Source: Escherichia coli (GTDB lineage Bacteria; Pseudomonadota; Gammaproteobacteria; Enterobacterales; Enterobacteriaceae). From it: 64,000 bases of DNA. Shown piece by piece: positions 10,469 through 29,655 of this stretch (positions are counted from its first letter, which is position 1; the number at the start of each line of letters is the position of its first letter). The stretch lies in the NCBI RefSeq assembly GCF_036507355.1, contig NZ_AP027877.1. One strand, 5' to 3'. The notes beneath the pieces were generated by a model. It was not told where the DNA came from. It did not search any database and was given only the letters and a program-made list of their open reading frames with translations. Position numbers and translations under genes: made by a program.

Positions 10469-10800
10469 GTAAATCCTCGGGGTAGATCGCAGCGAAAGAG
10501 CAACCATGCCTTATCGCAAATTCAGTTTTGGAATGCAGTTCGCAAAATGATACCCGGTACACTTACGATTACAAATGCGCGGTATAAAGAAGTTTGCATT
10601 TGATCGGTGAATAATAGGAAACTCAGTCACTGTTTCGTCTGCAAAATCAGCCATTTCGCCTTCATACGTAGTTCTTCGGTTGAATAGTAAGGTCTATCAT
10701 GCTGCATCGAACGGTGATTTTGATGGATGTTGGAAGTGAGTAGCTGTACGTAATTTTTGATTAAAAGTAATCAAAATGTTGCCAATGGTTATGCTATCGT

Positions 10801-12102: not shown

Positions 12103-12989
12103 TGCCACTGCTGGATAAGCTGCGTGAGCAGTACGGGGTCGGACCGCTATGCAGCGAACTGCATATTGCCCCGTCAACGTATTACCACTGTCAGCAACAG
12201 CGACATCATCCGGATAAACGCAGTGCCCGTGCGCAGCGCGATGACTGGCTGAAGAAAGAGATACAGCGCGTATACGATGAAAATCACAAGGTATACGGTG
12301 TGCGTAAAGTCTGGCGTCAGTTGTTACGGGAAGGTATCAGAGTGGCCAGATGCACTGTGGCACGTCTCATGGCGGTTATGGGACTTGCCGGTGTTCTCCG
12401 GGGTAAAAAGGTCCGTACGACCATCAGCCGGAAAGCCGTTGCCGCAGGCGACCGCGTAAACCGTCAGTTCGTGGCAGAACGACCTGACCAGCTGTGGGTG
12501 GCTGATTTTACTTACGCCAGCACATGGCGGGGCTTCGTCTATGTGGCGTTCATCATTGATGTGTTTGCCGGATACATCGTGGGGTGGCGGGTCTCATCGT
12601 CCATGGAAACGACATTCGTGCTGGATGCACTGGAGCAGGCGTTATGGGCCCGTCGACCGTCCGGCACGGTCCATCACAGTGATAAAGGTTCTCAGTATGT
12701 ATCGCTGGCCTACACACAGCGGCTTAAGGAAGCCGGATTACTGGCATCAACAGGAAGTACAGGCGACTCGTATGACAACGCGATGGCGGAGAGCATCAAT
12801 GGTCTTTACAAAGCGGAGGTAATACACCGTAAGAGCTGGAAAAACCGTGCAGAAGTGGAACTGGCCACACTCACGTGGGTGGACTGGTATAACAATCGAC
12901 GATTGCTGGAAAGGCTGGGCCATACTCCTCCGGCAGAAGCAGAAAAAGCTTATTATGCTTCCATCGGAAACGATGATCTGGCAGCCTGA
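12099..12989 (+). CDS. IS629 OrfB (DDE transposase; expressed by -1 frameshift with OrfA)
   Basis: IS3-family integrase/DDE core (WVADFTY... HSDKGSQY... DNAMAES); overlaps orfA in the -1 frame. Confidence 0.85.
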
Positions 12990-13153: not shown

Positions 13154-13999
13154 ATGTTACGTGGTTCAGAAAGAAAAGAAGCATTAGCCAGTCTCAAAAG
13201 TGCAACTAACCGTTATGAAGTACAGGCTAAAGACACCCAGGATGAGATCACTGCCCTCTTTCTGTTACGCCAGAAATGCAGTAAGGACCTGATTGCCCGT
13301 GGTGAAAATTTTGTTAATCGACTGGCGAATACACCGAAAGAGTTTGATAAATCCTGGAGCGAATTGAAAGCGGAAATCGCTGAATTTGATAACGTGGTGG
13401 AAAAACTGGAAGAAGAATACCGCGCATCACATATTGGTAAAGGAACGGCTGCTGCGGGGGTTGCCGTTGGGGCGGGGGTCGCCGCATTTGCCCCTACGGC
13501 TGCGCTGGCGGTCGCAACAACTTTTGGTACAGCATCCACGGGTACCGCTATTGCTACGTTAAGCGGAGCTGCCGCAACAAATGCAGCCCTGGCATGGCTC
13601 GGCGGCGGCGCACTGGCTGCGGGTGGCGGTGGCATGTCAGCAGGAAGCGCACTACTGGCTCTGGCGGGTCCAATAGGCTGGGGGATTGGTGCTGTAGGCA
13701 TCGCTGGCGGAACCTTACTAGCCCGTCGCAAAAACGGTAAAATCATTGATGAAGCACAACAGGAAGAGCGCCAGGTTCGCGCAAAAACCAGCGAACTTCG
13801 CGTGATGGAACGTGGTGCGCAAGAACTCAAGATGCTCACATCCGAGCACTATCATGGTACTGAAAGCATTATTGATGTGCTGGAAAAGGCTGCGCCTCAA
13901 GACTATTGCCAGTTTAATACCCATCAGAAAGATCAATTAGGGGCATTGATTAACCATATCAATGCATTATCAAAACTGATCAACAAGAAAATCCAGTAA
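13154..13999 (+). CDS. Hypothetical protein with central Gly/Ala-rich glycine-zipper membrane segment (281 aa)
   Basis: Helical N- and C-terminal regions flank a Gly/Ala-rich hydrophobic stretch of about 100 aa (GTAAAGVAVGAGVAAF ... GWGIGAVGIAGG). Its stop overlaps the next start (TAATG). Confidence 0.5.
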   Translation: MLRGSERKEALASLKSATNRYEVQAKDTQDEITALFLLRQKCSKDLIARGENFVNRLANTPKEFDKSWSELKAEIAEFDNVVEKLEEEYRASHIGKGTAAAGVAVGAGVAAFAPTAALAVATTFGTASTGTAIATLSGAAATNAALAWLGGGALAAGGGGMSAGSALLALAGPIGWGIGAVGIAGGTLLARRKNGKIIDEAQQEERQVRAKTSELRVMERGAQELKMLTSEHYHGTESIIDVLEKAAPQDYCQFNTHQKDQLGALINHINALSKLINKKIQ

Positions 14000-15444
14000 T
14001 GAGCATTAACCATAATACAGTTGGCGACCAGCTTATCGGCAGCGCGGTTAACGCCATTAATCAGACCCGCATTGATAATGAACTGTTAAAACTATCGCAG
14101 CAGGATCGTGCATTTGAGTTGGCTGGCGAACAAATGCAAAAGGTGCGTGATTTCATCGCGTCACCGGGTAACATCCTGGGCTCAATGAGCACCAAACACG
14201 GTGAAATTGCTGAGCAGGTAGAAGTTGGCGTGCGCAATGCTCGCCAGGCAATAGAAGAAAGGGTTCAGGATGCCTCTGATCTTAGCGCCACGTTTGACGG
14301 AGTGGGTCGAACCGCTCCGGCGGATTATATGATAGATGGCGTTGACGTGCAGTCAAAGTTTATCAACGGAGTTAATAATAACCTGAACCATGTCCTTCAG
14401 CACATGGAAACCTATCCCAATTTCACCCGGGGAGAATCCTTTTACCATATCCCCAAAGACTCCTGGCAAACGATTCAGGATGTTATTGATGGGAAGCCGG
14501 TGGAGGGCTTGAGCGAAAAAACAATACAGGCTATCAGGGATAAAGTTGCAGAAATTGAAAGTACAACGGGAAGATCCTTTAATGATGTCGTGCGTCCTGG
14601 AGTTTCTGATTACAAAGATGTTCAGTGGGGAAAAATTGACGAAACTCTTGATAAACATGATCAGGAATTAGCGGAACAGAACGAGGCAAAAAAAGCAGAA
14701 ATTATTGACGATCACCAACCCTCCCTAAGTGAAGGCATGCGTGCAACCGCAATGGGAGCCGCTTTCGGTGGAACCTTTGCTCTTGTAACAGGTATATATA
14801 GCAAATACCGTGACGGTAAAAATATATTTCGTGGAGATTTCAACAGACAGGACTGGCAGGATGTCGGCTTAGATACATTGAAAGGTGCCGCTATTGGCGG
14901 TGTATCCGCCGGAGCAATTTATACCCTGACCAATTATGCCTCTCTGGGAGCACCGTTCGCCAGCGCGCTGGTCACTGCCGCTAAAGGTGTAAGCAATCTT
15001 GCTCTCTCCTATCAGCGCGGTGAGATTAATGCTGATGAATTTACCGATCTTGGCCTTATCATCTGCGCGGAATCGGCCATCGTTGGCGCAATGTCTGTCG
15101 CAGGTCAGGCAATCATCCCTGTGCCTGTTTTGGGGGCATTGGTTGGTTCTATCTCAGGGAAGTTTATGGTTACCGTAGCTAAAAATCTGGACAGTAAAGC
15201 ACGCCAATTGCTGGCGAAAAAAATGGAGCAATTTACATGTCGCTTAAGTGAGATTGAGCAGAAAGCACTCAACCGAATTTTGAACGAGTTCGCGGCGCTG
15301 GGTGAGCTTACCGCAGCTGCATTTAGCGTGGAAAACAATCGCCGGTTGCTGGAAGCAAGCATCACGCTTGCCCAAGCCCACGGTGTTGAAGAGGCGAAGA
15401 TAATCAAAAATGCGGATGATCTTGACACATTTATGATGGCGTAG
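13999..15444 (+). CDS. Hypothetical protein with C-terminal glycine-zipper membrane segments (481 aa)
   Basis: Soluble N-terminal region of about 240 aa, then several Gly/Ala-rich hydrophobic segments (GAAFGGTFALVTG, GAAIGGVSAGAIYT, AIVGAMSVAGQAII). Translationally coupled to the upstream gene. Confidence 0.5.
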   Translation: MSINHNTVGDQLIGSAVNAINQTRIDNELLKLSQQDRAFELAGEQMQKVRDFIASPGNILGSMSTKHGEIAEQVEVGVRNARQAIEERVQDASDLSATFDGVGRTAPADYMIDGVDVQSKFINGVNNNLNHVLQHMETYPNFTRGESFYHIPKDSWQTIQDVIDGKPVEGLSEKTIQAIRDKVAEIESTTGRSFNDVVRPGVSDYKDVQWGKIDETLDKHDQELAEQNEAKKAEIIDDHQPSLSEGMRATAMGAAFGGTFALVTGIYSKYRDGKNIFRGDFNRQDWQDVGLDTLKGAAIGGVSAGAIYTLTNYASLGAPFASALVTAAKGVSNLALSYQRGEINADEFTDLGLIICAESAIVGAMSVAGQAIIPVPVLGALVGSISGKFMVTVAKNLDSKARQLLAKKMEQFTCRLSEIEQKALNRILNEFAALGELTAAAFSVENNRRLLEASITLAQAHGVEEAKIIKNADDLDTFMMA

Positions 15445-15480
15445 CACTCGAATAAAAATTACAGCAAGGATAAAACCACA

Positions 15481-18003
15481 ATGCTACAGATAATTGGTGC
15501 GTTAATTTTACTGGTAATCGGTTTTGTTATTATAAAAGCGTTGTTTAAGGCATCTCTCAATATTCTAGGTGTGATATTAGGATTGGGTGCATTGATTGTT
15601 GCAGGCCCACCTTTATTGGCGGGCTATATTGTAGAGCGCGTAACCTATGCGCTTCACTCACGTTGGCTGCTGGGTGTACCTCTTGCCATAGCAGGAATGG
15701 TGATTAGCTTTATGTGGGGACTTGATGGTAAACATATTGCCTACGAAGCCTATTCATTTGATTCAATGAAGTTTATTTTAACCGCTGCATTTGCCAGTGG
15801 CCTGCTTGCAGTACCTGTACAAACCAAGGCTATTCTACAAAACGGGCTTATACCAGCCGATATCAATGCCAAACTTAAAGAGTATTATTGCTGTTTTTAT
15901 ACGTCTTACTTTTTGATGGCCTGCTCTGCGGCTACACCGTTTATAGCCTGGCAATATAATATCTCATCTTCACTGATGTGGTGGACAGGATTGCTATACT
16001 GGATAGCAGCCTTACTGACACAGTTCTATGCGGCAAACCAAATTCAGGAACTCAAGAAGTTAACTAATGCCATCAATACAGGGTTAAATGAGCAAAAAGC
16101 GATCAATAACCAACTTTGGCTGACGGAACTAAAAGAAGGAAGTAACCTCTCAGCAGAATTCGTAGAGACTATCTATCTTAAGTTGGTCTCACAGCATATT
16201 TTTCAGGGCGATACTCGAGAGCAGGATCTGGCTGGTGAAAACTGGCTTTTAAATGATGCCTGGTATGAAAGAAAGATGGCTGAATTTAATGAGCAGTTAA
16301 ACAGTAAAATTGTACACTCATCAGATGAGCTAAGAAGCCTTTTTGGTAATAGGCTGAATTTACCCTCTGCTGCGAATGATGATCTCCTGAACCGTTATCT
16401 TGATGGTGGGAACTATTATTCTTTTTCGGATGGTCGAAAATTTGTCTCGTTTCACTATGTCGACGAGCTTTGTACCTGCACTTCATGCGGTTTGAGCGAG
16501 ATTAAAAACGCAAAACACCAGGACGGTTGTGGGAGCCAGGAATGGTATTGCTCTGATATTTGCCGGGAAACGGAAAAACTCTGCATTGAAATTCACAAGC
16601 GACCACAGGCTGAATTTATTTCCAGTGCAGCAACAAACGGTCTGATTCTCATGACGCTCCCGGAGGCCTGGAATACTAACGAAAAAATGTTTGCAGTGGG
16701 AGGACAAGGACATGGTTTTGCAGCCGAACGGGGAAATCATCTTACTGACAAAATCCAACTAAAAGATGCACATATTCTCGGTGATGATAATGCGAAAAAT
16801 GGTGCAGACAGGCTGGTTAACGGTTCAGAGATTCAGACCAAATACTGTGCAACCGCTGCACGTAGCGTCGGTGCTGGTTTTGACGGACAAAACGGTAATT
16901 ATCGCTATTATGACAGTAACGGAACCCCAATGCAGTTAGAGGTTCCGAAAGACCAGTATTCGAAAGCGCTTGAAACGATGGAGAACAAAATTCGCGATGG
17001 CAAAGTCCCCGGCGTTACCGATCCTGCAGAAGCCACAAAACTTGTACGTCAGGGACACCTGACTTATAGCCAGGCACAAAACATTACTAAGTTTGGCACG
17101 TTCGAATCTATCACTTACGACATTGCGGAAGGATCTATCATCAGCCTCGCAGCTGGAGGTATCAGCTTCGGTCTGACAGCTTCTATTTTCTACCTCAATA
17201 CCGGCGATCGTAAGGCTGCGTTGCAAACGGCAGCAATACAGGCAGGTAAAACATTTACCCGCACACTGACAGTTTATGTGACGGTACAGCAATTACACCG
17301 TATCAGTGCCGTTCAGGGGTTACTTAAAAATATTGATTTTGCCGCTGCCAGCCCGACAGTTCGTAATGCGCTTCAACAGGGAGTCGGAGCTAACAATCTC
17401 AACTCCCTTAACAAGATGATGCGTGGCACACTGGTTACCTCTTTCGCACTGGTCGCCGTGACCACTGGTCCGGATATGATCAAAATGGTGCGAGGTCGTA
17501 TTTCTGGGGCACAGTTTATAAAAAATCTGGCAGTTACTTCATCTGGTGTGGCTGGGGGGGCAATTGGTTCTATTGCTGGCGGAATGATGCTTAGTCCATT
17601 AGGTCCTTTCGGTGCTTTAGCAGGACGCGCAGCTGGTGGCTTGTTAGGCGGTATGATTGCCACAGCGATTTCCAAAAAAATAGCGGGTGCACTGGTTGAA
17701 GACGACCGAGTAAAAGTGCTGGCTCTCATCCAGGAACAGGTTACATGGCTTGCAACAAGTTTCATGCTTACAGCACACGAACTTGAAAACCTGAACGCGA
17801 ATCTGGCAACAGTAATTGACCAAAAAACCCTGGAGGTTATCTTCGCCGCAAAAGAGCAAGACCGAGCAACGGCCAATATGCTGATTAAACCACTTGTAGT
17901 AAGTGTGGTTAAGCAACGACCGGTCCTGAGCTATGAACAATCGCAAATCTGCGAAATGGTCGATCAGCTTGATACATCGGTTTCATTATCTGCTGTTGCA
18001 TAA
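15481..18003 (+). CDS. Hypothetical large membrane protein (840 aa): N-terminal multi-TM domain, Cys-rich zinc-ribbon-like segment, C-terminal glycine-zipper region
   Basis: About six N-terminal hydrophobic helices; Cys cluster CTCTSCGLSEIKNAKHQDGCGSQEWYCSDICRETEKLC; C-terminal Gly-rich segment SSGVAGGAIGSIAGGMMLSPLGPFGALAGRAAGGLLGG. Confidence 0.5.
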   Translation: MLQIIGALILLVIGFVIIKALFKASLNILGVILGLGALIVAGPPLLAGYIVERVTYALHSRWLLGVPLAIAGMVISFMWGLDGKHIAYEAYSFDSMKFILTAAFASGLLAVPVQTKAILQNGLIPADINAKLKEYYCCFYTSYFLMACSAATPFIAWQYNISSSLMWWTGLLYWIAALLTQFYAANQIQELKKLTNAINTGLNEQKAINNQLWLTELKEGSNLSAEFVETIYLKLVSQHIFQGDTREQDLAGENWLLNDAWYERKMAEFNEQLNSKIVHSSDELRSLFGNRLNLPSAANDDLLNRYLDGGNYYSFSDGRKFVSFHYVDELCTCTSCGLSEIKNAKHQDGCGSQEWYCSDICRETEKLCIEIHKRPQAEFISSAATNGLILMTLPEAWNTNEKMFAVGGQGHGFAAERGNHLTDKIQLKDAHILGDDNAKNGADRLVNGSEIQTKYCATAARSVGAGFDGQNGNYRYYDSNGTPMQLEVPKDQYSKALETMENKIRDGKVPGVTDPAEATKLVRQGHLTYSQAQNITKFGTFESITYDIAEGSIISLAAGGISFGLTASIFYLNTGDRKAALQTAAIQAGKTFTRTLTVYVTVQQLHRISAVQGLLKNIDFAAASPTVRNALQQGVGANNLNSLNKMMRGTLVTSFALVAVTTGPDMIKMVRGRISGAQFIKNLAVTSSGVAGGAIGSIAGGMMLSPLGPFGALAGRAAGGLLGGMIATAISKKIAGALVEDDRVKVLALIQEQVTWLATSFMLTAHELENLNANLATVIDQKTLEVIFAAKEQDRATANMLIKPLVVSVVKQRPVLSYEQSQICEMVDQLDTSVSLSAVA

Positions 18004-18192: not shown

Positions 18193-18618
18193 TTATTTCA
18201 GTCGTTTACCTGCATCATCAACGACTTTCTCGCCGTCTTCCTTAGCAAATGCGCCTTTTTGCGCATCCGGAAGAATATCCAGTACCACTTCGGAAGGACG
18301 GCACAGACGCGTTCCCAATGGTGTCGCCACAATCGGGCGATTAATCAGGATCGGATACTGAAGCATAAAATCGACTAACTGATCGTCAGTAAACTTATCT
18401 TCCGCAAGCCCCAGTTCTTCATAAGGTTCAACATTTTTACGCAATAGTGCCCGTACCGTTATCCCCATATCTGCGATGAGTTTGAGCACCTCATCGCGTG
18501 AAGGTGGATTTTCAAGGTAAAGAATAACGTTCGGTTCAGTACCGCTGTTGCGGATCATCTCCAGCGTATTACGCGACGTGCCGCAGGCTGGGTTGTGATA
18601 AATAGTGATGTTGCTCAT
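18193..18618 (-). CDS. arsC: Arsenate reductase ArsC (141 aa)
   Basis: MSNITIYHNPACGTSRNTLEMIR... with the catalytic Cys in the HNPACGTSR motif; recognised as enterobacterial ArsC. Confidence 0.85.
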   Translation of the reverse strand: MSNITIYHNPACGTSRNTLEMIRNSGTEPNVILYLENPPSRDEVLKLIADMGITVRALLRKNVEPYEELGLAEDKFTDDQLVDFMLQYPILINRPIVATPLGTRLCRPSEVVLDILPDAQKGAFAKEDGEKVVDDAGKRLK

Positions 18619-18630
18619 ATCAATATCTCA

Positions 18631-18840
18631 TTACAAAGTGAAAGAGAGACGTAGCGCCAGCGCGGCCAGCGTTACAAACAGCACAGGCAGAGTCATGATG
18701 ATCCCGGTGCGGAAATAGTATCCCCAGGTGATGGTCATGCTCTTCTGTGAAAAGACATGCAGCCAGAGTAGCGTTGCCAGGCTACCAATAGGTGTAATTT
18801 TCGGCCCCAGATCGCAGCCAATCACGTTGGCATAAATCAT
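18631..18840 (-). pseudogene. arsB: arsB 3' fragment (C-terminal about 69 codons of the arsenite efflux pump)
   Basis: Encodes only the hydrophobic C-terminal end of ArsB immediately upstream of arsC. No arsB 5' region or arsR is present, so the ars operon is truncated here. Confidence 0.7.
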
Positions 18841-19072
18841 CGCCTCTTTGATAACGCATCATACTGCCAGCGGAATAACTCTCTTCGTCAATACGGCTCT
18901 CGCTGTACGCTTACCCATCTAGAGAGGTTTCAGGTGATTATCGATGTCAGAAGACTGAATGATTCAGTCGTTTACTTTGAGATAGATCAGAGGTTTTTCA
19001 CTACCTGTGTTCATCACATGGCTACGAATAGTAGAATCCAAGCATAAATTAACGCTTAGAAAAGTTGAGCTC

Positions 19073-22000
19073 ATGAGATTCCACCCTGAAGGGCCTTCCA
19101 TACCCGATATCCTCTTAGAACGCTGTGATACAGGTCGAGTTGTATTTCTCTGTGGCGCTGGGGTTTCATTACCTTCAGGGATGCCAAGCTTTGTAGAGCT
19201 TACCCAGCATGTAATTGAATACTTTGACCCACCACACGATTCAGAAATCATGGCAGCATTTCGCCCATGGCTTCACGACCAATCTTCAGCTAATGTCCCT
19301 CTCGACCAAATTTTCAACCTCCTACATCTGGAATATGGCAAGGATGAGGTGAATGCTTTGGTATCAAAGCGTCTGGGGACTGCAAGAACTGATATAGAGA
19401 TTGGACGTGAGCATGCCCTGATTAAAAGAATTTCCTCAAATCAGAGTGGTGTCCCACAGATTGTCACAACGAACTTTGACCGACTGTTCGAGGATAACCA
19501 AGCGCAAGATAATCTAACTCGATATGTGCCGCCAGCTTTCCCAAATCTGAATTTCGGTTCGACAATTGAGGGAATAACATATCTTCACGGCCGCCTGGTC
19601 GACGAAAATGCTGTAAACCATCCTTATGTGCTGAGCAGTGCAGACTTTGGAAGAGCATATCTTTCAGAAGGATGGGCGACCAATTTTATTAAGCTTCTTC
19701 TGGAACGATACATCGTTGTTTTGGTCGGTTATCAGGCAGAAGACCCACCAGTTAAATACCTCCTTCAGGGTCTCAATCATGATGGCCAGTATGATCGTTC
19801 CAGACTTTATGCATTTGATCGCGGCCTTGCCGAGGATATCGAAGCCAAATGGCGTGACAGAGGAGTTACAGCCATAGCCTATTCCGATCATCCAGCTCTT
19901 TGGAAGACTTTGGAAGCATGGGCTGAGCGAGTAGATGATCCACGTCGATGGCGAGCTTCTATTATCGCTAAAAGCCAGCAAGATCCGAAAGTTCTAGCAC
20001 CGTATGAACGTGGTCAACTTGCCCATATACTTCGCACTACACAAGGTGCGAAATTGTTCTCTGAAGCTGTTCCTCTTCCCCATCCAGAGTGGCTTTGTGT
20101 GATGGATGCAAATATTCGGTCAGCCAAACAGAAGAAAAGATACTACGAACTTGATGACAATGATGCAGAGACCTTCGATCCACAAGAAGCTTATGGGCTT
20201 GATGACGATCTGCAAGATATCGCTGATGATGAACGTAAACGTGGAGTGAGTAACGATAATCTCCTTGAATAGCGCGACGAAGATGATAACCCGTCAGATT
20301 ACCATCGCTTGGCTGGATGTTTGGAGACAATGCCGAAACGATTGAGCCATCTCATGGTCTGGTTCTGCAAATCTCTTGATAGCCCCGTGATGGCTTGGTG
20401 GGCTATCCGAAAAATCAGTATTCATCCTCTACTACTACAAAATATTGAACGCAATATTGAGCATTCAACATCAATCCACAAACGCGCTCGTCAACTGTGG
20501 GGCTTAATTCTTGAACATCATAAAGATCCCCGCAATCGTCGTTATGACGTCGATTGGTACGACTTAAAAGCTCGAATTACAAAACAAGGCTGGACAGCTG
20601 GTGTCTTACGAGAATTTCGTAGGGTAATGACACCCCGATTGGAAAAGAAGTTGCCGTATGGATTGGGTGAAGTCAGACCGCCAAGCGGCTCCTGGGAGGA
20701 AATTCAGTTCAGCGAATTTGGCCAATTTGAAGTTGTGTTCACCGAAAGACATGATGACGATTTAGACGTACCTGACAATGTATTACTACAAGTATTTAAT
20801 GCCTTAGAAGCGCAAATAATAATTGCCTCCGGAATGTTAGAGGATATTGATACGCACTACTTTCCAAGCCCAAGTTGTTATCCAGAACGTGCGGTTGAAG
20901 GAGAAGAACATTTCGCGAAAGGTGCGGAGGTATTAACTTGGTTTGTCCAACTTTTAGACCGAGTTGTTATGAAGTGGCCAGAATTGGCTAAGGCATAAGT
21001 AACAACTTGGCCAGTTAAGGAGCCATTTTTCTTCCGAAAGCTTAGACTTTATGCATTCAGTAAAAAAGGCGTCTTTGAGGCTGACCGTGTTGCCGAAGAG
21101 CTTTTGTCTTTGGATCAAAGTGGATTTTGGGACACAAATATTACCCGCGAACTTCTTTTTCTGCTCACTGATCGTTGGGAAGAATTCTCGCAAGAAAATC
21201 AGAATCGAATTATAGAGCATATATTAACCGGCCCGAACCATTTACTTTATTTGTCTGAGGAAGACATTCCAAAAGAAAGAGAGATATTAGCAGCTAGATA
21301 CGCTCGTTATCTCGAACTAAACGGCTGTAAAGTAACCACTATTCATCGTGACCAACTAACTGCGATGATTAAAAGAATTCCTGACTGGAATGATGGCTGG
21401 GCTACATCTGTTGTCATCAATTGGGGTTCACGGACAGGTTGGGTTCGTACAGACGAAAAGCCAGATATAATCTTAGATCTTCCAGCAAACGAAATAATCC
21501 CAAAAGTAAAAGAGATACTTAAACGAGAGGATGATAGCTTTACTAGTAGGCAACCCTTTGTCGGATTGATAAAAGAAAATCCGCGTAAAGCTTTGTCTGC
21601 ACTCGCTATTGCAGGGAGAGGCGGTGATTACCCTAAGGAATTTTGGTCGCCAATGATAAGTGAGTTACCTATAGATCTTAAACCAAGGGTGAGACGAGTA
21701 TTCCTGAACCGAATTGTGCGATTGCCAGTTACAGCTTTGGTCGAGTTACGACATACATTAAGTAACTGGCTTGAACAAAATTTAGCTGCGACTCTTGAAT
21801 TTGATGAGGATCTCGGGTGGGCAGTTTACGATCATGTCATAGCAGGCATACTGAGTGGTGGCGCCAGTGCAATACGGAGTAGTTTCGGAGAAGTTATCCG
21901 GAATGGAGAAGTTGTAATACAGTCTCGCCGCACGTTCAGTCATGCAATCAATGGTCCTGTCGGTAAATGTACTCAAGCGCTTTTTCAAGCAATGCCAAGT

Positions 22001-22882
22001 GAAGAGAAAAAAGCTGGTTCGCTTATTCCTTACTCTATTAAGTCTCGTATTGAACATCTTTTTACTGCACCAGGAGAAGGAGCGGACCACGCTATAGCTA
22101 TAACGTCTCGCAATCTAAATTGGCTAATGTTTGTTGATCCTGCATGGGTAAAGGAATGGCTTATACCCCTTTTGGATTTAAAACATCCTGCAGCAGAACC
22201 AGCATGGAATGGTTATCTTCAGTGCAATGCTATGCCTTCAATTGCAGTAGCTGAACTTATTAAACCAGCTTTTCTTAACCTTATCCCTTGGATCGAATCT
22301 CTTTCTTGGGAAAAAGATTATTCAGTTCGAGCTTCGCAATGGCTTGGCTTAATGAGAATGTTTCACCCTGATGAGCCCTCCAGTCCTTCCAGGAATGAAA
22401 TGCGCTCCATATTACGAGCATTATCTGACGAGGCTCGAAATCGTTTTATTTCCTGGTTAGGATTGGTCGGGCAGAAAAACGAGAGTGGCTGGGTTAAGTA
22501 TGTGATCCCATTAATCAGAGAGGACTGGCCCAAAGAACGCCAATATAGAACCACGAGCTCTGTAAAAGCATGGATTGGTTTACTTGACGATACTGGCGAT
22601 AAGTTTCCGGAGGTTTACGATTCAGTAAAAACATACTTAGTACCAATCGAGACAATTGATCATTTGTTCTACAGATTCACTCGGGAGCTCGGTGGTAAAG
22701 GAGCAATTGCGGCTATTTTTCCAGAAACCACGCTTGATTTAATGGACAAAATAACACCACTGATATTCACGCGTACATCAGGAGAGCTGCAGAAGATTCT
22801 TGAGCTAATTGAAGATACAGATACAAGTCTGATCAAGGATTCTCGGTACTTACGGCTTATTGCACTGGTTGAGAAAAATTAG
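19073..22882 (+). pseudogene. Large SIR2-domain protein gene (about 1,270 codons) interrupted by two in-frame stop codons
   Basis: N-terminal SIR2-like motifs (VVFLCGAGVSLPSGMPSF; IVTTNFDRLFE). Track ORFs 19007-20272, 20309-20998 and 21104-22882 all lie in the same frame, separated only by TAG at 20270-20272 and TAA at 20996-20998. Confidence 0.65.
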
Positions 22883-23040
22883 CATTTATGGTTTTTTACC
22901 GTTGTTGATTACTCAGCAACACTTTTCGACATGCCGTAGCGCTTATCGCCTGTTCTTGACTAAGATGAGAAGCAGGCGTTAAAGTTTGGTTAAAGGAGAA
23001 CCTCTAACCATTCCTTCTGGAAGAAATAATCTTTGGAGTA

Positions 23041-23769
23041 TTATTGAAATTGCTCAAATATACCATGCAACCCAATAAATTTTATTTTTAGTGCAGGATC
23101 ATGCCTTAGAACAGTCTCAAGTGAGTTCCGCTCATAAATTATTGATTGTGCTTGTATTGAGCCGTTCCATGAAGGCAAAAGCAGTAAAGCAGATGTTTCC
23201 AAATCAATACCCCACCAATCGTTAACATAGCAATTTAAAAAATCAACAAGAGCCTTAATCGCAATAAAAGCATCTTTTTCGGTATATGTTTCAGGATCGA
23301 GGGATATACCTGATATATTACTTTTAGCTTGCTCGGAATTAATATTAGACTGGTGTTGATAAGCAATTTTTCCTTCACCCGGTTTAGTTTCTATTGTATC
23401 AGTGAAAATTTTAATCTTAGGATGCACCAATGCATTTCGTTGTGCTATTAATTCTTTTATTATTTGTGTTTGAGTGGTTCCACGAGGTAAAGACATGTCT
23501 TTATGCCATTGAAGAGTATAGTCAAATTTATCAAGTGAAGAGAACCTGTCAATTTGATCTTTTAACTTTTGCGTTATTTCTATAGAAGATAAAAATGAGT
23601 TAGCTGCAGCCTCAATAGCGTAGTTAATTGAAAGTACACTTGATTTGGCAAGTGTTTTTTTGATGTGTGATTTTTTTGTTGCAGCTGATAATTCATAAAG
23701 AGTTATTGCATCAGAAAAAAGCTCAAAAAAGCTGTTCTTGGTTATTTCAACTTTTCTTTTCACACGCAA
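23041..23769 (-). CDS. Hypothetical protein (242 aa), third gene of the uncharacterised operon
   Basis: ORF in a low-GC region 84 bp downstream of the 504-aa gene on the same strand; no recognisable motifs. Confidence 0.45.
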   Translation of the reverse strand: MRVKRKVEITKNSFFELFSDAITLYELSAATKKSHIKKTLAKSSVLSINYAIEAAANSFLSSIEITQKLKDQIDRFSSLDKFDYTLQWHKDMSLPRGTTQTQIIKELIAQRNALVHPKIKIFTDTIETKPGEGKIAYQHQSNINSEQAKSNISGISLDPETYTEKDAFIAIKALVDFLNCYVNDWWGIDLETSALLLLPSWNGSIQAQSIIYERNSLETVLRHDPALKIKFIGLHGIFEQFQ

Positions 23770-23852: not shown

Positions 23853-25367
23853 CTATCGAGAATAAGAACTGGGTTTAGGAAAACCACCTCTGACGACGAC
23901 AACAACAATTGCAACTTGAGATTGACCTGTTGGATGAGTGAATACTTCAATATCATCCTCTATTACTCCCACCGGCGCTGATTTTGACGTTGATTCCAGA
24001 ACAACCAAAATACCGATACGCTTACCTAATCCAATGGCATAAGCTGCTGTTTGATCGAAATATTTTTGAAAATCCTTGGGAAAAAGAACCTTATTATTTT
24101 CAACTTTTAGTTCTATCGGAATGTCTTCAAATGTGAGATCCGTTATCCCGCCAGCAGCCTCTGGATGGCCTTGTAATTTCTCGCCAATCTCATTCCTACT
24201 TCTAAGCATTTCGGCTATTTTACGCTGAAATTTTTGCTCTGATGTGCCAGCAATAAATAAACTAGCTTTAAGAGCTTGTGCTGCAACATTTCCTAAGCCG
24301 CCAAGTATAACCATTGTATTAGCAATGTCATCTGAGTGTAATCCAGGGAAAGCTCGTAATATGTTACGAATTTTTATAAGATGCCTATCGACGTTTGAAA
24401 ATCCAGTTAATGGAGCTTGAGCGGAATCACTCCCTTCAAGTAGTAAGCGCCTATGTCCTACGATAGCAATATTTTGGCAATTACTTAAATTGTCAAACTC
24501 GGCAGCATATAGGAATTCGTAAGGTCTCGAGCCAAATGAATTTGCCACTTCCAAGACGACACGACCGATCCCCTTCAGTGTGAAGGGGCCTTCCCCCTCT
24601 GGTTTCTCAAATCTAAAATCAGGCAACCAGTCTCGCTCACGAGCATCAATTGTCACTGGCTTTAATGAGAGGAAATTTGCACTTTTTGGCCAATTTGAAA
24701 CCCTGACCTCTATGTTAAGGTCATAAGCCGTACCCGGCTTAAGATAATTCCATTGCTGAGCTGGTTCCCCATCAATATCAAACTTTAGAAATGCAACTGT
24801 CGATTCTTGTGTTTTATTCTCTTTTGTCTCTTTACTAGATATTCCTTGCCTAATCTCCTCAATATTTTTATCGCGAAGATTTGCGAATAAGAGTAGTGGC
24901 AATGACCAGCTTGTTAACTGGTCTTGTATTTGTTTTAATGAATCTAATTTACTGATTGAACGGACTTGCTCTATAAATTCATTAAATTGTTTGTTCTCCG
25001 AGAGACTCGTCGTCATGTCGATCTCTGATGCTTTTAATTGTGCTGAATTTAAAAACCTTTGAGCATCAGTCTCAGCATTACGTATAGCATGTTTCCACTC
25101 AGCTAGAGTTACAAATATAGTCATTGCTATATAATATGCACGATATTGATCTTCAACATATCCCTGACCGAGCTCATCGAGCGTTTCATTGAGCTTTTGA
25201 CACGCTTCTTTAAGTTTCACCAAGTCATTCGGAATGGACTTGAGTGCACCATCCAACGCTGCTGCAATCTCAACCCTCGGAGAAAAAGCTTGGCGGAAAA
25301 TCTCGAAATTTGGCTCGTTCTTCATATTCTTTCTCCAACTCAGCCGTAAGACCATTCCATTTTTCAA
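23853..25367 (-). CDS. Hypothetical protein (about 490-504 aa) with possible C-terminal PD-(D/E)xK nuclease-like motif
   Basis: C-terminal segment GGITDLTFEDIPIELKVENNK fits a D-x8-E-x-K pattern. The start is uncertain: the first ATG overlaps the upstream gene by about 98 bp. Confidence 0.45.
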   Translation of the reverse strand: MKNGMVLRLSWRKNMKNEPNFEIFRQAFSPRVEIAAALDGALKSIPNDLVKLKEACQKLNETLDELGQGYVEDQYRAYYIAMTIFVTLAEWKHAIRNAETDAQRFLNSAQLKASEIDMTTSLSENKQFNEFIEQVRSISKLDSLKQIQDQLTSWSLPLLLFANLRDKNIEEIRQGISSKETKENKTQESTVAFLKFDIDGEPAQQWNYLKPGTAYDLNIEVRVSNWPKSANFLSLKPVTIDARERDWLPDFRFEKPEGEGPFTLKGIGRVVLEVANSFGSRPYEFLYAAEFDNLSNCQNIAIVGHRRLLLEGSDSAQAPLTGFSNVDRHLIKIRNILRAFPGLHSDDIANTMVILGGLGNVAAQALKASLFIAGTSEQKFQRKIAEMLRSRNEIGEKLQGHPEAAGGITDLTFEDIPIELKVENNKVLFPKDFQKYFDQTAAYAIGLGKRIGILVVLESTSKSAPVGVIEDDIEVFTHPTGQSQVAIVVVVVRGGFPKPSSYSR

Positions 25368-27843
25368 TTAAGTCATTATAGGGTTCGCAAACACTTATGG
25401 CATGTTCAATGCTAGCTGCTTCTGTAACTAAAGCAGCCTTAAGTTTCCATTGTGTATTTCTTTCATCATTTGGAATTTCTTCCAGTAGTTCCTTTAAACA
25501 AACATTTGCAGTTACGTTATCACCACACTTGCTTAACGCAGCCACGTACACTAATGCTTCAATAAATTGTTGAGGTTTAAATGGTTTCAGAGCATTGAAT
25601 GCTTTTTGGAGATCGTCTTTACAATTTCGAAGCTCATTATGTGGCGCTCTTAATATCACTGAGATGCAGTCATCAATAGAAATACTGCGAGTATACTCAT
25701 CCTGAATTGCTTTGAGTGCGACTTTGACAAAACCGGGAATATCATCAAAATGAAAACGCAATCGATTGATAGCATCATAAAGTGCACTTCCTTCTAAAAT
25801 TAATAATATATTAGAAAGAAGCAATCCAATTTTCCCCTTTCTCTCTTCATCTGATAAGCAAAGAGAAGAAAAAACGTCAATGCATTCTACAATGAAATTA
25901 TCTTTTTTATCTTGTTGAATATAATAGCAAATTAGATTCCATAGCCGGGATCTCACAAGTCCCCGTTTCTCCTCAGGAAAAGATCTACGGCTCAAAGCGC
26001 GAACAGCATACTGATGCACCATAACATATTGATCTAATAGCAAGACTGAATATGCTTCGAAGAATAAATCTGGGAAATTCTTCACTAAATCATAGGGAAC
26101 ATTTTCCCACGCTTGTACGGCACGTGCTCGAATCAATGTACTCTCATCCATAAGAGCACGATACCAATCGGAGAGCACTAGTGTTAGGCTGTCAATACCA
26201 GTTAATAACTTAGAAACATGGGCAATCATGTTCCCACGCATTTGAGTTTGTTCTTCTGGTAAGCTTCTATAGAGATGAAGAAAATCATCGATTCCTTCAC
26301 TCCCTCTAGATTTAGCTCCAATCGCAGCCCATTCAATCAATGCACCCTGTAAGCCATCAATAGCATTACGCTTATTACTTTTATCTAAATGATCTAGAAA
26401 ACTCTCATTTATTTCTATGATTTTTTCTTTATTCAACGCCTCAAATTTCTCGCTTAGCGTTGCAGCCGCTCCGATCAAATCGTCAAAATTATCAACTGCA
26501 AGCTCAGCAAATTCGTCCCAAGAGTGTCTAAAGAATTGTCCTGCATCATCCATGCTATCCTCTGGATTTTCCACAGCAGCCCAGAGCAAACGCCTAAAAG
26601 CTATTTTTTGTGTCTTTCCTGTTTTACTTTTTTTTCTATAGTTATTTCGCAGTACAGATCTGTAAGCTCTATTGGCCTCATGTCTCCCAATATCATCTTT
26701 GTCAGCAAGATAGGATTGAATAACTTTATCGCTTTCATCGGGAAATCTATCTAAGTATTTCGTAGCAGCCTCCCGAAGAAAGAAAAGAATGCTGCTATCT
26801 CTCCGCTCCTCCGGGAGTAGAGTCCGTCGACGCATCAGCTTAGCAAATATACTTCTAATATGTCTTAGAAGCAGCTCATCATCATCCGATGCAATAATTA
26901 TCTCAATAGCAAATTGAAATTTTCCCCGGTGAGTATCTTTTATGTATTCATCAACAACATCACAGATATCAGCTTGTCTTTTTTTAAAAAGTGACTGAAT
27001 GGGGCCTTTATTAAGTACTTTTCGCTCAAATGTGCCAATCATCATTCCAGGAGGAGATTCAACAGCCATTCTAACAAAGTGGTAAAGGACTTTTAAGAAA
27101 TCATCTTCAGATAGATTCTCTGCTTCCAAGAGGATTGCTTCTATAGCTGGTGGACAATATTCGAAGTTGTTTATTAAATATACTGAAATTGCCAGTTTTT
27201 CCGCTTGTGATAATTCAGTTCTTATTAAAGCTTTTGCTGCTGGCATTGAATATGGTAATTTCTCATGTAACACTGCAGGCAACAAGTGTTCAATTATTTT
27301 ACTTGTAAATGTCTCAGGTGCCAGATTAGCAAGTTGTTCCAAACGGGGATCGTTGTTCTCTATATCCTCTTGATCGAGTTCATCAAGCAAATCAAGCACA
27401 AACGTTTCTTCTAGAGTAAGTGAAAGACGTAATACTGCTCGTTCTTGTTGTCTATTGAGCTGCTTCTGCTTTCTCTGCCTTTCTTCTTCTTTGCGAGCCA
27501 AATTTCGTTCTTCGGCAGATTTTTCTCTTGGGCCTACAAACTCTAAAATATTGGGAAATCCCACCGGAACCCGTTGATTACAATGTTTACAGTTCTGTTT
27601 ATAGAAGCTGTAAACCGAGTCTTCCAGCAGCCAGCTAAGCATTGAACTTTGCTTAACAAATTTGCATTGAACTCCCATGTGACCAATGGGTAACCCTGTT
27701 TCAGCCTCAATCATGCCTCTCCCCTCTGATCGAATGAATTCAGAGTGAGAACACCAGTTACTAAGTAGGTGTACAGCACGGAGATTTCGTTGACCAGCTT
27801 CGATTGCCTCTTCAAATCTTTTTTTATCTTCAAAATCATCCAT
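25270..27843 (-). CDS. Hypothetical large protein (857 aa) with N-terminal Cys/His cluster; first gene of the operon
   Basis: N-terminal WCSHSEF...GHMGVQCKF...CKHCNQ could be a zinc-binding module; the rest is predicted helical with charged linkers. Preceded by an AT-rich 400-bp region. Confidence 0.5.
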   Translation of the reverse strand: MDDFEDKKRFEEAIEAGQRNLRAVHLLSNWCSHSEFIRSEGRGMIEAETGLPIGHMGVQCKFVKQSSMLSWLLEDSVYSFYKQNCKHCNQRVPVGFPNILEFVGPREKSAEERNLARKEEERQRKQKQLNRQQERAVLRLSLTLEETFVLDLLDELDQEDIENNDPRLEQLANLAPETFTSKIIEHLLPAVLHEKLPYSMPAAKALIRTELSQAEKLAISVYLINNFEYCPPAIEAILLEAENLSEDDFLKVLYHFVRMAVESPPGMMIGTFERKVLNKGPIQSLFKKRQADICDVVDEYIKDTHRGKFQFAIEIIIASDDDELLLRHIRSIFAKLMRRRTLLPEERRDSSILFFLREAATKYLDRFPDESDKVIQSYLADKDDIGRHEANRAYRSVLRNNYRKKSKTGKTQKIAFRRLLWAAVENPEDSMDDAGQFFRHSWDEFAELAVDNFDDLIGAAATLSEKFEALNKEKIIEINESFLDHLDKSNKRNAIDGLQGALIEWAAIGAKSRGSEGIDDFLHLYRSLPEEQTQMRGNMIAHVSKLLTGIDSLTLVLSDWYRALMDESTLIRARAVQAWENVPYDLVKNFPDLFFEAYSVLLLDQYVMVHQYAVRALSRRSFPEEKRGLVRSRLWNLICYYIQQDKKDNFIVECIDVFSSLCLSDEERKGKIGLLLSNILLILEGSALYDAINRLRFHFDDIPGFVKVALKAIQDEYTRSISIDDCISVILRAPHNELRNCKDDLQKAFNALKPFKPQQFIEALVYVAALSKCGDNVTANVCLKELLEEIPNDERNTQWKLKAALVTEAASIEHAISVCEPYNDLIEKWNGLTAELEKEYEERAKFRDFPPSFFSEG

Positions 27844-28246: not shown

Positions 28247-29443
28247 TTATGAAGCACTCCTGAGAGCAACCCTTCCAACTTTATCAATATAATCCGCATA
28301 CCACTGCATCATCTCTCTCCTGCCTTCCAAATACAGCGCATGGTTGTACGTCCCGCGAATCGCATTCTTATCGACATGCGCAAGCTGGGTTTCAATCCAT
28401 GCGGTATTGAACCCTTCCTCATGCAAAATCGTACTCATCGTGTGGCGGAAACCATGCCCCGTTACCTTCCCCGTGTACCCAATCCGCTTAAACACCTGAT
28501 TAATACTCGCTTCGCTCATTGTTTTGCGGGGATCATTCCTCCCAGGAAACACCAGAGGATATTGCCCAGACATCACTTTGAGCTGCTGTACGATCTCCAG
28601 CGCTTGGGTAGAGAGGGGCACCAGGTGAGGCCGTTTCATCTTCATGCGCTCTGCAGGTATTTCCCACACCGCTTTTTCAAGATCAAACTCACTCCAGAAA
28701 GCACCTCGAAGCTCACCGGTGCGAACCCCCGTAAGGATCAGCAAACGTGCGGCAAGAACAACCAGCGGGCTGCCTGTATAGCCAGAAAGAGCTTTAAAGA
28801 AATCTGGTAACTCCTCAACGGTAAGGAAGGGATAATGCTTCGATTCATGCCCTGACATCGCGCTGGTTAGATCCGCAGCCGGATTGTATTCCGCACGACC
28901 GGTAACTATGGCGTAGCGAAAGACTTCGCTGCAGCGCTGGCGAACTTTCTTGGCCTTCTCTGTCGCACCACGGCTTTCCATTCGACGCAGTACATTCAAC
29001 AGAACAAGAGGCTTAATTTCATTGACTGGCTGCTGACCGATATAGGGAAAAATATCTTTATTTAAAGCTTCGATAATGTCCGATGCATACCCTTCTGACC
29101 ATCTGCTCACCTTCGTACCGTGCCACTCAAGCGCCACAGACTGGAACGTATTATTGAGCTGCACATCACGAACCAGCTTTTCTTCTTTCTTGGCAAACGA
29201 TGGATCGATACCCTCGGCCAGCTTTTTCTTGGCTTCATCGCGTAGTGCCCTCGCTTGAGCAAGGGACACTGCCGGATAAACGCCAAAAGCCATACGCTTC
29301 TCTTTTCCATTGAAGCGATATTTCATTCGCCAGTATCGAGAACCAGAGGGAACGACTTCAAGATACAAACCAGCACCATCTGCCAGCTTATAGGCTTTCT
29401 CTCTGGGTTTAGCTGCATCTACCTGTCGCGCATTTAGCTTCAT
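28247..29443 (-). CDS. int: P4-type tyrosine integrase (about 398 aa)
   Basis: N-terminal MKLNARQVDAAKP...LYLEVVPSGSRYWRMKYRF typical of P4-family integrases; C-terminal catalytic region with HGFRHT and a downstream Tyr; lies beside a tRNA fragment. Confidence 0.8.
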   Translation of the reverse strand: MKLNARQVDAAKPREKAYKLADGAGLYLEVVPSGSRYWRMKYRFNGKEKRMAFGVYPAVSLAQARALRDEAKKKLAEGIDPSFAKKEEKLVRDVQLNNTFQSVALEWHGTKVSRWSEGYASDIIEALNKDIFPYIGQQPVNEIKPLVLLNVLRRMESRGATEKAKKVRQRCSEVFRYAIVTGRAEYNPAADLTSAMSGHESKHYPFLTVEELPDFFKALSGYTGSPLVVLAARLLILTGVRTGELRGAFWSEFDLEKAVWEIPAERMKMKRPHLVPLSTQALEIVQQLKVMSGQYPLVFPGRNDPRKTMSEASINQVFKRIGYTGKVTGHGFRHTMSTILHEEGFNTAWIETQLAHVDKNAIRGTYNHALYLEGRREMMQWYADYIDKVGRVALRSAS

Positions 29444-29606
29444 TGGGGGCATCTCCCTGGACCGAACACAGAATGCCCCCACTTATGCCCCCAACTGTAA
29501 CTTGATTCCGGTTGAGTCCAGTTGATAACAGGAGATAAAATACGGGCTAGAAACCGCAGTATACGGGCTTTTAGTTGATTTCGGTAGACTTGGGAAGAGT
29601 TTGAAA

Positions 29607-29655
29607 TGGTGCCGATAATAGGAGTCGAACCTACGACCTTCGCATTACGAATGCG
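29607..29655 (-). other. 3' fragment (49 bp) of a tRNA-Thr(CGU) gene; attachment-site remnant
   Basis: Reverse complement reads ...CGCATTCGTAATGCGAAGGTCGTAGGTTCGACTCCTATTATCGGCACCA: anticodon stem-loop with CGT, T-arm, acceptor 3' strand and CCA. The 5' half of the tRNA is absent, so this is not a functional gene. Confidence 0.7.

What the first reader, a model, noticed from the sequence alone, without database searches (positions are those of the whole stretch)
19073..22882. Giant SIR2-domain gene (about 1,270 codons) inactivated by exactly two in-frame nonsense codons
Three adjacent track ORFs lie in one continuous frame; only TAG (20270-20272) and TAA (20996-20998) interrupt it. The N-terminus carries SIR2-type NAD-binding motifs (FLCGAGVS; TTNFDRLFE), as in defence-associated sirtuins that deplete NAD+ on infection. 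A single-gene SIR2 protein over 1,200 aa resembles the DSR class in architecture. That it is broken by point nonsense codons rather than deleted suggests recent inactivation, or read errors.
Basis: partly seen in the sequence, partly recalled or inferred. Interest (0 to 1): 0.65.

Follow-up and report, generated by a model that had tools for sequence, protein, structure and literature searches.

The report
Broken Dsr1-like anti-phage sirtuin gene
This is a recently inactivated copy of a Dsr1-like anti-phage gene, a large enzyme that destroys NAD+ when a phage infects, cut short by two real single-base stop mutations in an E. coli defence island; it is an ordinary example of defence-gene decay.

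Summary
Window 19073-22882 (+) is one reading frame of 1,269 codons, interrupted only by TAG (20270-20272) and TAA (20996-20998).

Intact E. coli alleles are 99.9% identical. Against them, the stops are single-base changes: G>A at 20271 (Trp400, invariant in the family) and C>A at 20998 (Tyr642).

- **TAA is real:** it occurs in at least 10 other assemblies.
- **TAG is recent:** it was found only in this genome and in a read-derived assembly of SRR26926489, which is identical to the window across the gene. It is one of only two differences in 15.5 kb from strain ET826.
- **One gene, not three:** over 100 homologues are single proteins of about 1,269 aa.

The protein has an N-terminal SIR2 NADase domain (GAGVS 28-32, Asn134, His172) and an all-alpha solenoid of about 850 aa. 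It aligns end to end with canonical Dsr1 (22% identity, E=2e-61) and hits PADLOC Dsr1 models. It scores 379 bits against NCBIfam's 1,400-bit Dsr1 cut-off, so it is a diverged Dsr1-like subfamily.

The gene stands alone in variable contexts. Here it lies in a decaying defence island that also holds RdrB and ZorA1 fragments.

Novelty and interest are low.

The parts
19073..22882 (+). Whole Dsr1-like SIR2 pseudogene: 1,269 codons plus the native TAA stop, with two internal nonsense codons
   Evidence: translation. (3 differences from the intact PSJ-29 allele). (homologues are 1,265-1,272 aa). (Dsr1 homology).
19073..20272 (+). Fragment 1: 399 codons plus TAG, holding the complete SIR2 domain and an acidic, low-confidence linker. 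This is the only product expected from the native start. It is annotated in RefSeq as WP_338387635.1.
   Evidence: (Pfam SIR2_2).
19154..19168 (+). GAGVS (aa 28-32), the glycine-rich NAD-binding loop of the SIR2 domain
   Evidence: Invariant in 25- and 37-sequence alignments. Position.
19457..19876 (+). Pfam SIR2_2 (PF13289) match, aa 129-268. It contains Asn134 (19472-19474) and His172 (19586-19588), both in invariant columns.
   Evidence: E=1.6e-13. (invariant N134, H172). (top structural matches are DSR2, ThsA and KomC SIR2 domains, from a low-confidence model).
20270..20272 (+). Nonsense codon 1: TAG at codon 400 (ancestral TGG, Trp400), from G>A at 20271. Found only in this genome.
   Evidence: (the exact 399-aa product is on one genome contig). 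(also in the Logan assembly of SRR26926489). (one of only 2 differences from ET826 in 15.5 kb). Trp400 is invariant.
20273..20998 (+). Fragment 2: 241 codons plus TAA, the start of the alpha-helical region. The first in-frame ATG after the TAG is at 20330.
20996..20998 (+). Nonsense codon 2: TAA at codon 642 (ancestral TAC, Tyr642), from C>A at 20998. This is the older mutation, shared with ET826, ET881 and at least 8 further assemblies.
   Evidence: (663-aa product on 10 contigs, 592-aa downstream product on 12). (five loci checked: TGG at codon 400, TAA at codon 642).
20999..22882 (+). Fragment 3: 627 codons plus the native stop, the C-terminal two thirds of the alpha-solenoid sensor. The only in-frame starts found in the 200 bases checked after the TAA are TTG codons at 21104 and 21110.
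   Evidence: (all-alpha repeat model, best confidence here). (HEAT/ARM-type solenoid matches).
20330..22879 (+). Predicted alpha-solenoid sensor region of the ancestral protein (about aa 420-1269). It is homologous over its length to the C-terminal region of canonical Dsr1.
   Evidence: fold. (BLASTP alignment runs to aa 1263). (NCBIfam Dsr1 profile positions 449-1261 matched). No Pfam family matches.

Best explanation
The locus is a pseudogene of a stand-alone, Dsr1-like defence-associated sirtuin.

**How the intact protein probably works.** The intact 1,269-aa protein has an N-terminal SIR2 NAD+ glycohydrolase domain, an acidic linker and an alpha-solenoid of about 850 aa. By homology with Dsr1 and by analogy with DSR2 (inferred, not shown here), the solenoid is a sensor that binds a phage structural protein. 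Binding activates the SIR2 domain, which lowers cellular NAD+ and blocks phage replication.

**What happened in this genome.** The gene was inactivated in two steps. A C>A change first made TAA at codon 642, and this allele now circulates in several E. coli strains. A very recent G>A change then made TAG at the invariant Trp400. Translation from the native start now yields only a 399-aa SIR2-plus-linker fragment with no sensor. The system can therefore no longer detect phage.

**Which steps are shown and which are inferred.** Shown: the mutations, their order, their reality, one-gene colinearity, the domain content and the Dsr1 homology. Inferred: NADase activity, the trigger, and the loss of function.
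For: - **Frame and stops:**
- **Single-base origin of both stops:** comparison with the intact PSJ-29 allele, 3 differences in 3,876 bases.
- **Order of events:** TAA is shared by the window, ET826 and ET881, while TAG is in the window only. The window and ET826 differ at 2 positions in 15.5 kb, one of which is the TAG.
- **Reality of the stops:** the TAA-allele product is on 10 contigs. The Logan assembly of SRR26926489 is identical to window 18802-23272, including both stops.
- **One gene:** 2,781 homologues were found, and nearly all of the top 120 are 1,265-1,272 aa.
- **SIR2 domain:** Pfam E=1.6e-13. GAGVS, N134 and H172 are invariant. The top fold matches are defence SIR2 domains.
- **Dsr1 homology:** PADLOC Dsr1 E=8.9e-86 and 2.8e-79. 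NCBIfam Dsr1 E=5.7e-113. BLASTP to a PGAP-named Dsr1 covers 1-1263 against 1-1259 at E=2e-61.
- **Sensor fold:** all-alpha solenoid.
- **Stand-alone gene:** it lies alone between two IS copies in Pseudomonas oryzae and alone after guaA in Microbulbifer.
- **Mechanism from the literature:** DSR1 lowers NAD+ during phi29 infection (bioRxiv 10.1101/2021.12.14.472415). The trigger of E. coli Dsr1 is a phage major capsid protein, sensed by an Avs7-like TPR sensor (PMC12803255). ECOR17 dsr1 blocks T4 lacking nrdC.5 (PMC9391042).
Against: - Identity to characterised Dsr1 is only 22%, and the NCBIfam score (379 bits) is far below the 1,400-bit equivalog cut-off. Activity and trigger of this subfamily are therefore extrapolated.
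- No member of this subfamily is known to me to have been tested.
- The SIR2 structural model is poor (pLDDT 60), and the solenoid matches are generic (TM about 0.2).
- SRR26926489 may be the read set of the same isolate. If so, it is a technical replicate of the TAG, not a biological one.
- Loss of function is inferred from truncation, not measured. A residual role for the 399-aa SIR2 fragment is not excluded.
Confidence: 0.9

Rival explanations
1. One or both stops are sequencing or assembly errors, and the gene is intact in the living strain.
For: The TAG allele was found only in the window's own genome and in one read-derived assembly, which may come from the same isolate. It is a single substitution.
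Against: TAA is present in ET826, ET881 and at least 8 further assemblies. Both stops are present in an independent assembly of public reads that is 100% identical over 4.47 kb. The change is a substitution in a non-repetitive context (GAATGGCGC), with no homopolymer and no Dam or Dcm site, as read directly from the sequence.
Confidence: 0.04
2. The inactivation was selected rather than neutral. Intact or partly truncated Dsr1-like protein is costly, for example through leaky NAD+ loss or autoimmunity. The TAA truncation (aa 1-641) was therefore followed by a second, selected truncation at codon 400.
For: Only 4.7% of possible single-base changes in this gene create stops. Two of the three differences from the intact allele are stops, with P about 0.006 under neutrality. 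The TAG is one of only two changes in 15.5 kb relative to ET826. Among 7 E. coli copies there are two independent primary knock-outs, TAA and an IS903B insertion. There are also two secondary lesions, the TAG and an IS1-adjacent 5' deletion.
Against: The locus was flagged because of its stops, so the small P value suffers from ascertainment. Intact alleles are the commoner form in the public collection, on 24 and 31 contigs for two intact sequences. Neighbouring defence genes are also decayed through IS activity (RdrB and ZorA1 fragments). This fits general neutral erosion of the island. No toxicity data exist for this protein.
Confidence: 0.15
3. The three ORFs form a functional split system, with a SIR2 subunit and separate sensor subunits, or function is retained through read-through or re-initiation.
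For: An in-frame ATG at 20330 is preceded by GGAG. RefSeq annotates the pieces as separate CDSs.
Against: No homologue in the top 120 is split. The split state differs from the intact gene by two point mutations at 99.9% identity. In the 200 bases checked after the TAA, only TTG starts occur, about 105 bases downstream and with no clear ribosome-binding site. Trp400, which is destroyed, is invariant.
Confidence: 0.02

Closest known systems
Dsr1 (defence-associated sirtuin 1; NCBIfam NF041818; for example E. coli WP_029488749.1 or WP_053264524.1)
   Same: Both are single-gene systems of nearly the same length (1,269 against 1,263 aa). Both have an N-terminal SIR2 domain with the same GAG.S, TTNFD and YLHG motifs, followed by a long alpha-helical C-terminal region. 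The two proteins are colinear from end to end. Both occur in integrase-associated defence islands next to restriction-modification genes.
   Different: Identity is only 22%, and the score of 379 bits is far below the 1,400-bit equivalog cut-off, so this is a separate subfamily. Its trigger is unknown. The window's copy is broken by two nonsense codons.
DSR2 (Bacillus subtilis; PDB 8xff, 8wkt and others)
   Same: It has an N-terminal SIR2 NADase and a C-terminal alpha-solenoid sensor in one polypeptide. The top structural matches of the SIR2 model are DSR2 chains. It is the mechanistic template: binding of a phage structural protein activates NAD+ hydrolysis (PMC10973363).
   Different: No PADLOC Dsr2 model matched, and there was no sequence hit to any PDB chain. 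DSR2 is about 1,000 aa, and published work describes its C-terminal region as having limited homology to that of DSR1.
Avs5 / AVAST type 5 (SIR2-STAND)
   Same: It has an N-terminal SIR2 effector fused to a large C-terminal sensor, and is similar in size.
   Different: There is no STAND NTPase. No Walker A motif is present, no NTPase Pfam domain matches, and no Avs model matches in PADLOC.
Avs7 sensor family (PMC12803255)
   Same: The preprint reports that Dsr1 sensors are homologous to the bilobed TPR sensor of Avs7, which recognises phage major capsid protein. The region here is homologous to the canonical Dsr1 sensor and is an alpha-repeat solenoid.
   Different: Homology to Avs7 itself was not tested, because no Avs7 sequence was available. 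The protein has no NTPase module.

Membership tests
Dsr1 (defence-associated sirtuin 1) | N-terminal SIR2 domain with an NAD-binding glycine loop and catalytic Asn/His | tested here: met
   Pfam SIR2_2 E=1.6e-13. GAGVS 28-32, N134 and H172 are invariant, including in the alignment with canonical Dsr1. All of these lie upstream of the first stop.
Dsr1 (defence-associated sirtuin 1) | Full-length colinear sequence homology to characterised or curated Dsr1 | tested here: met
   BLASTP to WP_053264524.1 covers 1-1263 against 1-1259 at 22% identity, E=2e-61. PADLOC Dsr1 models PDLC04167 and PDLC02183 match at E=8.9e-86 and 2.8e-79.
Dsr1 (defence-associated sirtuin 1) | Score at or above the curated NCBIfam equivalog cut-off (NF041818.1, 1,400 bits) | tested here: not met
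   The score is 378.8 bits at E=5.7e-113. The protein is therefore a diverged Dsr1-like subfamily rather than an orthologue, and RefSeq names it only 'SIR2 family protein'.
Dsr1 (defence-associated sirtuin 1) | One stand-alone gene encoding a single polypeptide of about 1,200-1,300 aa | tested here: met
   This holds for the intact alleles and the family: 1,265-1,272 aa, alone between IS copies or housekeeping genes. The window's copy fails it, being split into 399, 241 and 627 codons.
Dsr1 (defence-associated sirtuin 1) | Large alpha-helical repeat (TPR-like) C-terminal sensor | tested here: met
   The AlphaFold2 model of aa 361-1269 is almost all alpha-helical repeats, with mean pLDDT 72.6. 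Foldseek matches are HEAT/ARM solenoids at E about 1e-5, but TM is only about 0.2. The bilobed shape and the relation to Avs7 were not tested.
Dsr1 (defence-associated sirtuin 1) | Infection-dependent NAD+ depletion and phage defence, with activation by a phage protein | not testable with these tools
   Known only from the literature on other Dsr1 proteins.
DSR2 | Sequence membership in DSR2 models or structures | tested here: not met
   There is no PADLOC Dsr2 hit and no phmmer hit to PDB chains, which include DSR2. Only the SIR2 fold resembles it.
Avs5 (SIR2-STAND) | Central STAND NTPase with a Walker A motif | tested here: not met
   No G....GK[ST] or GK[ST] motif is present. No NTPase domain is found in Pfam, and no Avs model matches in PADLOC.
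SIR2-HerA / Thoeris ThsA / SIR2-pAgo | Partner gene (HerA, ThsB-TIR or pAgo) adjacent, or a SLOG domain | tested here: not met
   The neighbours are an arsC remnant upstream and a 242-aa unknown gene plus OloB and OloA downstream. The generic PADLOC SIR2 models PDLC04087, 04082, 04081 and 04092 match only weakly, with the best E=1.6e-5.

The most novel reading that the evidence does not exclude
This 1,269-aa clade is widespread in Gammaproteobacteria and only 22% identical to characterised Dsr1. It may be a functionally distinct Dsr1-like system with its own phage trigger. Its repeated knock-outs in E. coli (TAA, then TAG, plus an IS903B insertion and an IS1-adjacent deletion) may reflect a real fitness cost. 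In that reading the second stop was selected to remove a harmful, sensor-crippled 641-aa NADase.
Probability: 0.12. Interest if true: 0.35.

Novelty: new member of a known kind. Interest (0 to 1): 0.2.

Why it matters
The practical value is mainly for annotation and strain phenotype. RefSeq lists the fragments as separate proteins ('SIR2 family protein' and 'hypothetical protein'). Automated defence-system finders could therefore either count a dead Dsr1-like gene as active or miss it.

The locus also gives a dated, stepwise example of defence-gene decay. One nonsense allele has spread through several E. coli strains, and a second very recent hit has occurred in one genome. This sits in an island where RADAR and Zorya are also truncated.

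The intact alleles (PSJ-29, Z226-5/-6, Citrobacter) would be convenient material for testing an uncharacterised Dsr1-like clade. The naturally truncated alleles are ready-made controls.

None of this would surprise a specialist.

Tried and rejected
- **Conserved partner gene:** I tested whether the 242-aa convergent ORF downstream (23041-23769) is a conserved Dsr1 partner, because a 228-aa ORF sits in the same place next to canonical dsr1 on pMTY18781-2. BLASTP shows no similarity (E=1.0), and Pfam, PADLOC and NCBIfam find nothing. Rejected.
- **Possible 5' lesion in Z226-5 and EC2641:** their CDS calls start 177 bases downstream, which suggested another lesion. The alignment shows no 5' difference, so this is only an inconsistent start call.
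- **Other dsr1 genes in E. coli:** a 'distant' blastn search for divergent copies found only the same 6 genomes.
- **Solved structures:** a sequence search against PDB chains found no hits.
- **Preprint supplements:** I looked for this protein's accession in the Avs7/Dsr1 preprint supplements, but none are held.
- **Phage carriage:** only one distant relative turned up, in a Stx2c prophage record.
- **SIR2 structure:** the model had low confidence (pLDDT 60), so it is used only as weak support.
- **Promoter and terminator scan:** nothing above the shuffled expectation.
- **General literature on defence pseudogenes:** the search added nothing specific.
Full report
**Observation.** Translating window 19073-22882 on the + strand gives a single frame of 1,269 codons plus a terminal stop. 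It has exactly two internal stops, TAG at 20270-20272 and TAA at 20996-20998. The mechanical ORF list shows three ORFs in that frame, and the pieces are 399, 241 and 627 codons.

**Origin of the two stops.** The window is E. coli DNA. Megablast against 5,426 complete E. coli genomes finds this gene in only six, all at 99.9% identity or more. A more sensitive blastn search adds none.

- In strain PSJ-29 the region is one intact CDS annotated 'SIR2 family protein'.
- Over 3,876 bases the window differs from PSJ-29 at three positions. These are 20271 G>A (TGG Trp to TAG), 20998 C>A (TAC Tyr to TAA) and one synonymous change at 22711.
- Strain ET826 has only the TAA.
- ET881 has the TAA plus loss of the first 1,500 bases next to an IS1.
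- EC2641 has an intact frame interrupted by a 1,066-bp IS903B insertion.
- Z226-5 and Z226-6 are intact. Their shorter CDS call is only a different start choice, with no sequence difference.

TAA is therefore the older, shared lesion. TAG is a later event found only in the window's genome. The window and ET826 are colinear for 15.5 kb with just two mismatches, one of which is the TAG.

**Are the stops real?**

- The exact product of the TAA allele (663 aa from the GTG start) is on 10 contigs in the public protein collection, and the downstream 592-aa product is on 12.
- Five such loci that I read all carry TGG at codon 400 and TAA at codon 642.
- The exact 399-aa product of the TAG allele is on one 4.64-Mb chromosome, which is presumably the window's source.
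- It is also on a contig assembled independently from the public read set SRR26926489. That contig is 100% identical to window 18802-23272, including both stops.
- The read set may belong to the same isolate, so it is technical rather than biological replication. Even so, it makes an assembly or polishing artefact unlikely.

**One gene, not three.** A search of the large protein collection returns 2,781 homologues at E<=1e-10. Nearly all of the best 120 are single proteins of 1,265-1,272 aa. They come from Salmonella (96% identity), Serratia (91%), Yersinia (84%), Pseudomonas and other Gammaproteobacteria (about 65%). It also fixes the start at the ATG at 19073, where position 1 of the PADLOC profile aligns as well. 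Trp400, destroyed by the TAG, is invariant in the family and in the alignment with canonical Dsr1. Tyr642 is not conserved.

**What the protein is.**

- *SIR2 domain.* Pfam finds only SIR2_2 (aa 129-268, E=1.6e-13) and nothing in the remaining 900 or so residues.
- *PADLOC.* The intact protein matches Dsr1 models at E=8.9e-86 and 2.8e-79, and generic SIR2 models only weakly.
- *NCBIfam.* The Dsr1 equivalog model matches colinearly (E=5.7e-113) but at 379 bits against a curated cut-off of 1,400.
- *Direct comparison.* A PGAP-named Dsr1 from an E. coli plasmid (WP_053264524.1, 1,263 aa) aligns from residue 1 to 1263 at 22% identity, E=2e-61.
- *C-terminal fold.* An AlphaFold2 model of aa 361-1269 is almost entirely alpha-helical repeats (mean pLDDT 72.6). 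It matches HEAT/ARM-type solenoids only generically.
- *N-terminal fold.* A low-confidence model of aa 1-400 (pLDDT 60) still retrieves only defence-type SIR2 NADases at the top: DSR2, ThsA and KomC.
- *No NTPase.* There is no Walker A motif, which excludes an Avs5-type STAND architecture.
- *No partner gene.* None of the partner genes of other SIR2 systems is adjacent.

The protein is therefore a diverged, full-length homologue of Dsr1. It is Dsr1-like in architecture and ancestry, but not an orthologue by NCBI's criterion.

**Stand-alone status and context.** In Pseudomonas oryzae the gene lies alone between two IS transposase genes inside a catabolic operon. In Microbulbifer it lies alone after guaA. 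In Serratia it travels with the same three downstream genes as here. It is not typical phage cargo.

In the window it sits in an integrase-bounded defence island, in this order:

- a type I restriction-modification system with an embedded PDC-S11 gene
- a ZorA1 fragment and an IS3
- PDC-M09A and PDC-M09B, plus an 840-aa gene
- an arsC/arsB remnant
- the Dsr1-like pseudogene
- a 242-aa unknown gene
- Olokun (OloB, OloA)
- a tyrosine integrase

The island is visibly decaying. Only the last 250 aa of RADAR RdrB remain next to an IS1. Only the first 297 aa of ZorA1 remain next to the IS3, whereas ET826 keeps the whole Zorya operon.

**Mechanism.** The following steps are shown here:

- the domain content
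- conservation of the SIR2 catalytic residues
- homology to Dsr1
- the two mutations and their order

The functional steps rest on the literature. DSR1 lowers NAD+ during phi29 infection, transiently and without culture collapse (bioRxiv 10.1101/2021.12.14.472415). E. coli Dsr1 is triggered by a phage major capsid protein through an Avs7-like TPR sensor, and effector mutations abolish defence (PMC12803255). ECOR17 dsr1 blocks T4 lacking nrdC.5 (PMC9391042). In DSR2, binding of a phage tail tube protein to the C-terminal domain allosterically activates the SIR2 domain (PMC10973363).

My inference is that the intact protein here works the same way with an unknown trigger. The window's allele makes only a sensorless 399-aa fragment and is non-functional.

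**Neutral decay or selection?** Only 4.7% of possible single-base changes in this gene create stops. Two stops among three differences has P of about 0.006 under neutrality. Among seven E. coli copies there are two independent primary knock-outs and two secondary lesions.

This hints at a cost, but three points argue for caution:

- The locus was selected for study because of its stops.
- Intact alleles are commoner overall.
- The neighbouring systems are eroding too.

I give selected, stepwise inactivation about 0.15.

**Verdict.** This is a recently pseudogenised member of a diverged Dsr1-like clade, a new member of a known kind. It has modest value for annotation and as natural material for testing that clade, and low surprise value.

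Noticed in passing
window 1380-2144 (-) and 2396-2899 (+): Only the C-terminal 250 or so aa of the RADAR adenosine deaminase RdrB remain (profile positions 599-850 of 850), next to an IS1 transposase fragment. This is another truncated defence system.
   Followed up: partly
window 10801-11724 (+), with IS3 at about 11776-12989: Only the N-terminal 297 aa of ZorA1 remain, abutting an IS3. The near-identical island in ET826 keeps complete zorA-D before the same IS3, so the window has an IS3-associated deletion of type I Zorya.
   Followed up: partly
window 3070-10507 (-): This is a type I restriction-modification operon (hsdR, hsdS, hsdM). A 411-aa gene matching the PADLOC candidate PDC-S11 (E=3.5e-173) is inserted between hsdR and hsdS.
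   Followed up: no
window 13154-18003 (+): PDC-M09A (281 aa) and PDC-M09B (481 aa) are followed by an 840-aa gene. That gene has weak similarity to PDC-M09B (E=6e-5) and a precomputed YeeR_C Pfam hit, so it may be a third component of this candidate system.
   Followed up: no
window 23041-23769 (-): This 242-aa ORF has no family match in Pfam, PADLOC or NCBIfam. It sits between the Dsr1-like gene and OloB/OloA, and a similarly sized ORF (240 aa) lies at the same position in the Serratia locus. It could be an Olokun accessory gene. It is unrelated to the ORF downstream of canonical dsr1.
   Followed up: partly
L001 (ET826) 18198-21306; window 25270-27843 (-): OloA is intact in the window (857 aa). 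In ET826 its CDS is shortened (18198-20327) and abuts an ISKpn26 transposase gene, so different defence genes are knocked out in sister copies of the same island.
   Followed up: no
window 19007 / 19073 / 19250 (start codons): RefSeq uses three different starts for identical 5' sequence: GTG at -66 (1,291 aa), and ATG at +177 (1,210 aa) in Z226-5 and EC2641. The family consensus and profile alignments support the ATG at 19073 (1,269 aa).
   Followed up: yes
L010 (Pseudomonas oryzae LT629751.1) 3352-10482: An intact homologue (66% identity) lies alone between two DDE_Tnp_1 transposase genes inside a duplicated meta-cleavage pathway cluster. This looks like a composite transposon carrying only the sirtuin gene.
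   Followed up: no
window 28247-33215: The island's integrase (28247-29482, -) is followed by no tRNA gene in the window. Instead, two IS3 transposase ORFs and a ycgV-like autotransporter follow. In PSJ-29 the same integrase abuts tRNA-Thr next to proA. The island has therefore been rearranged or moved in the window/ET826 lineage.
   Followed up: partly
window 18193-18840 (-): An arsC gene and a 5'-truncated arsB remnant lie directly upstream of the Dsr1-like gene. They are conserved in all E. coli copies, and appear to be a relic of an arsenic-resistance operon in which the defence gene now sits.
   Followed up: no
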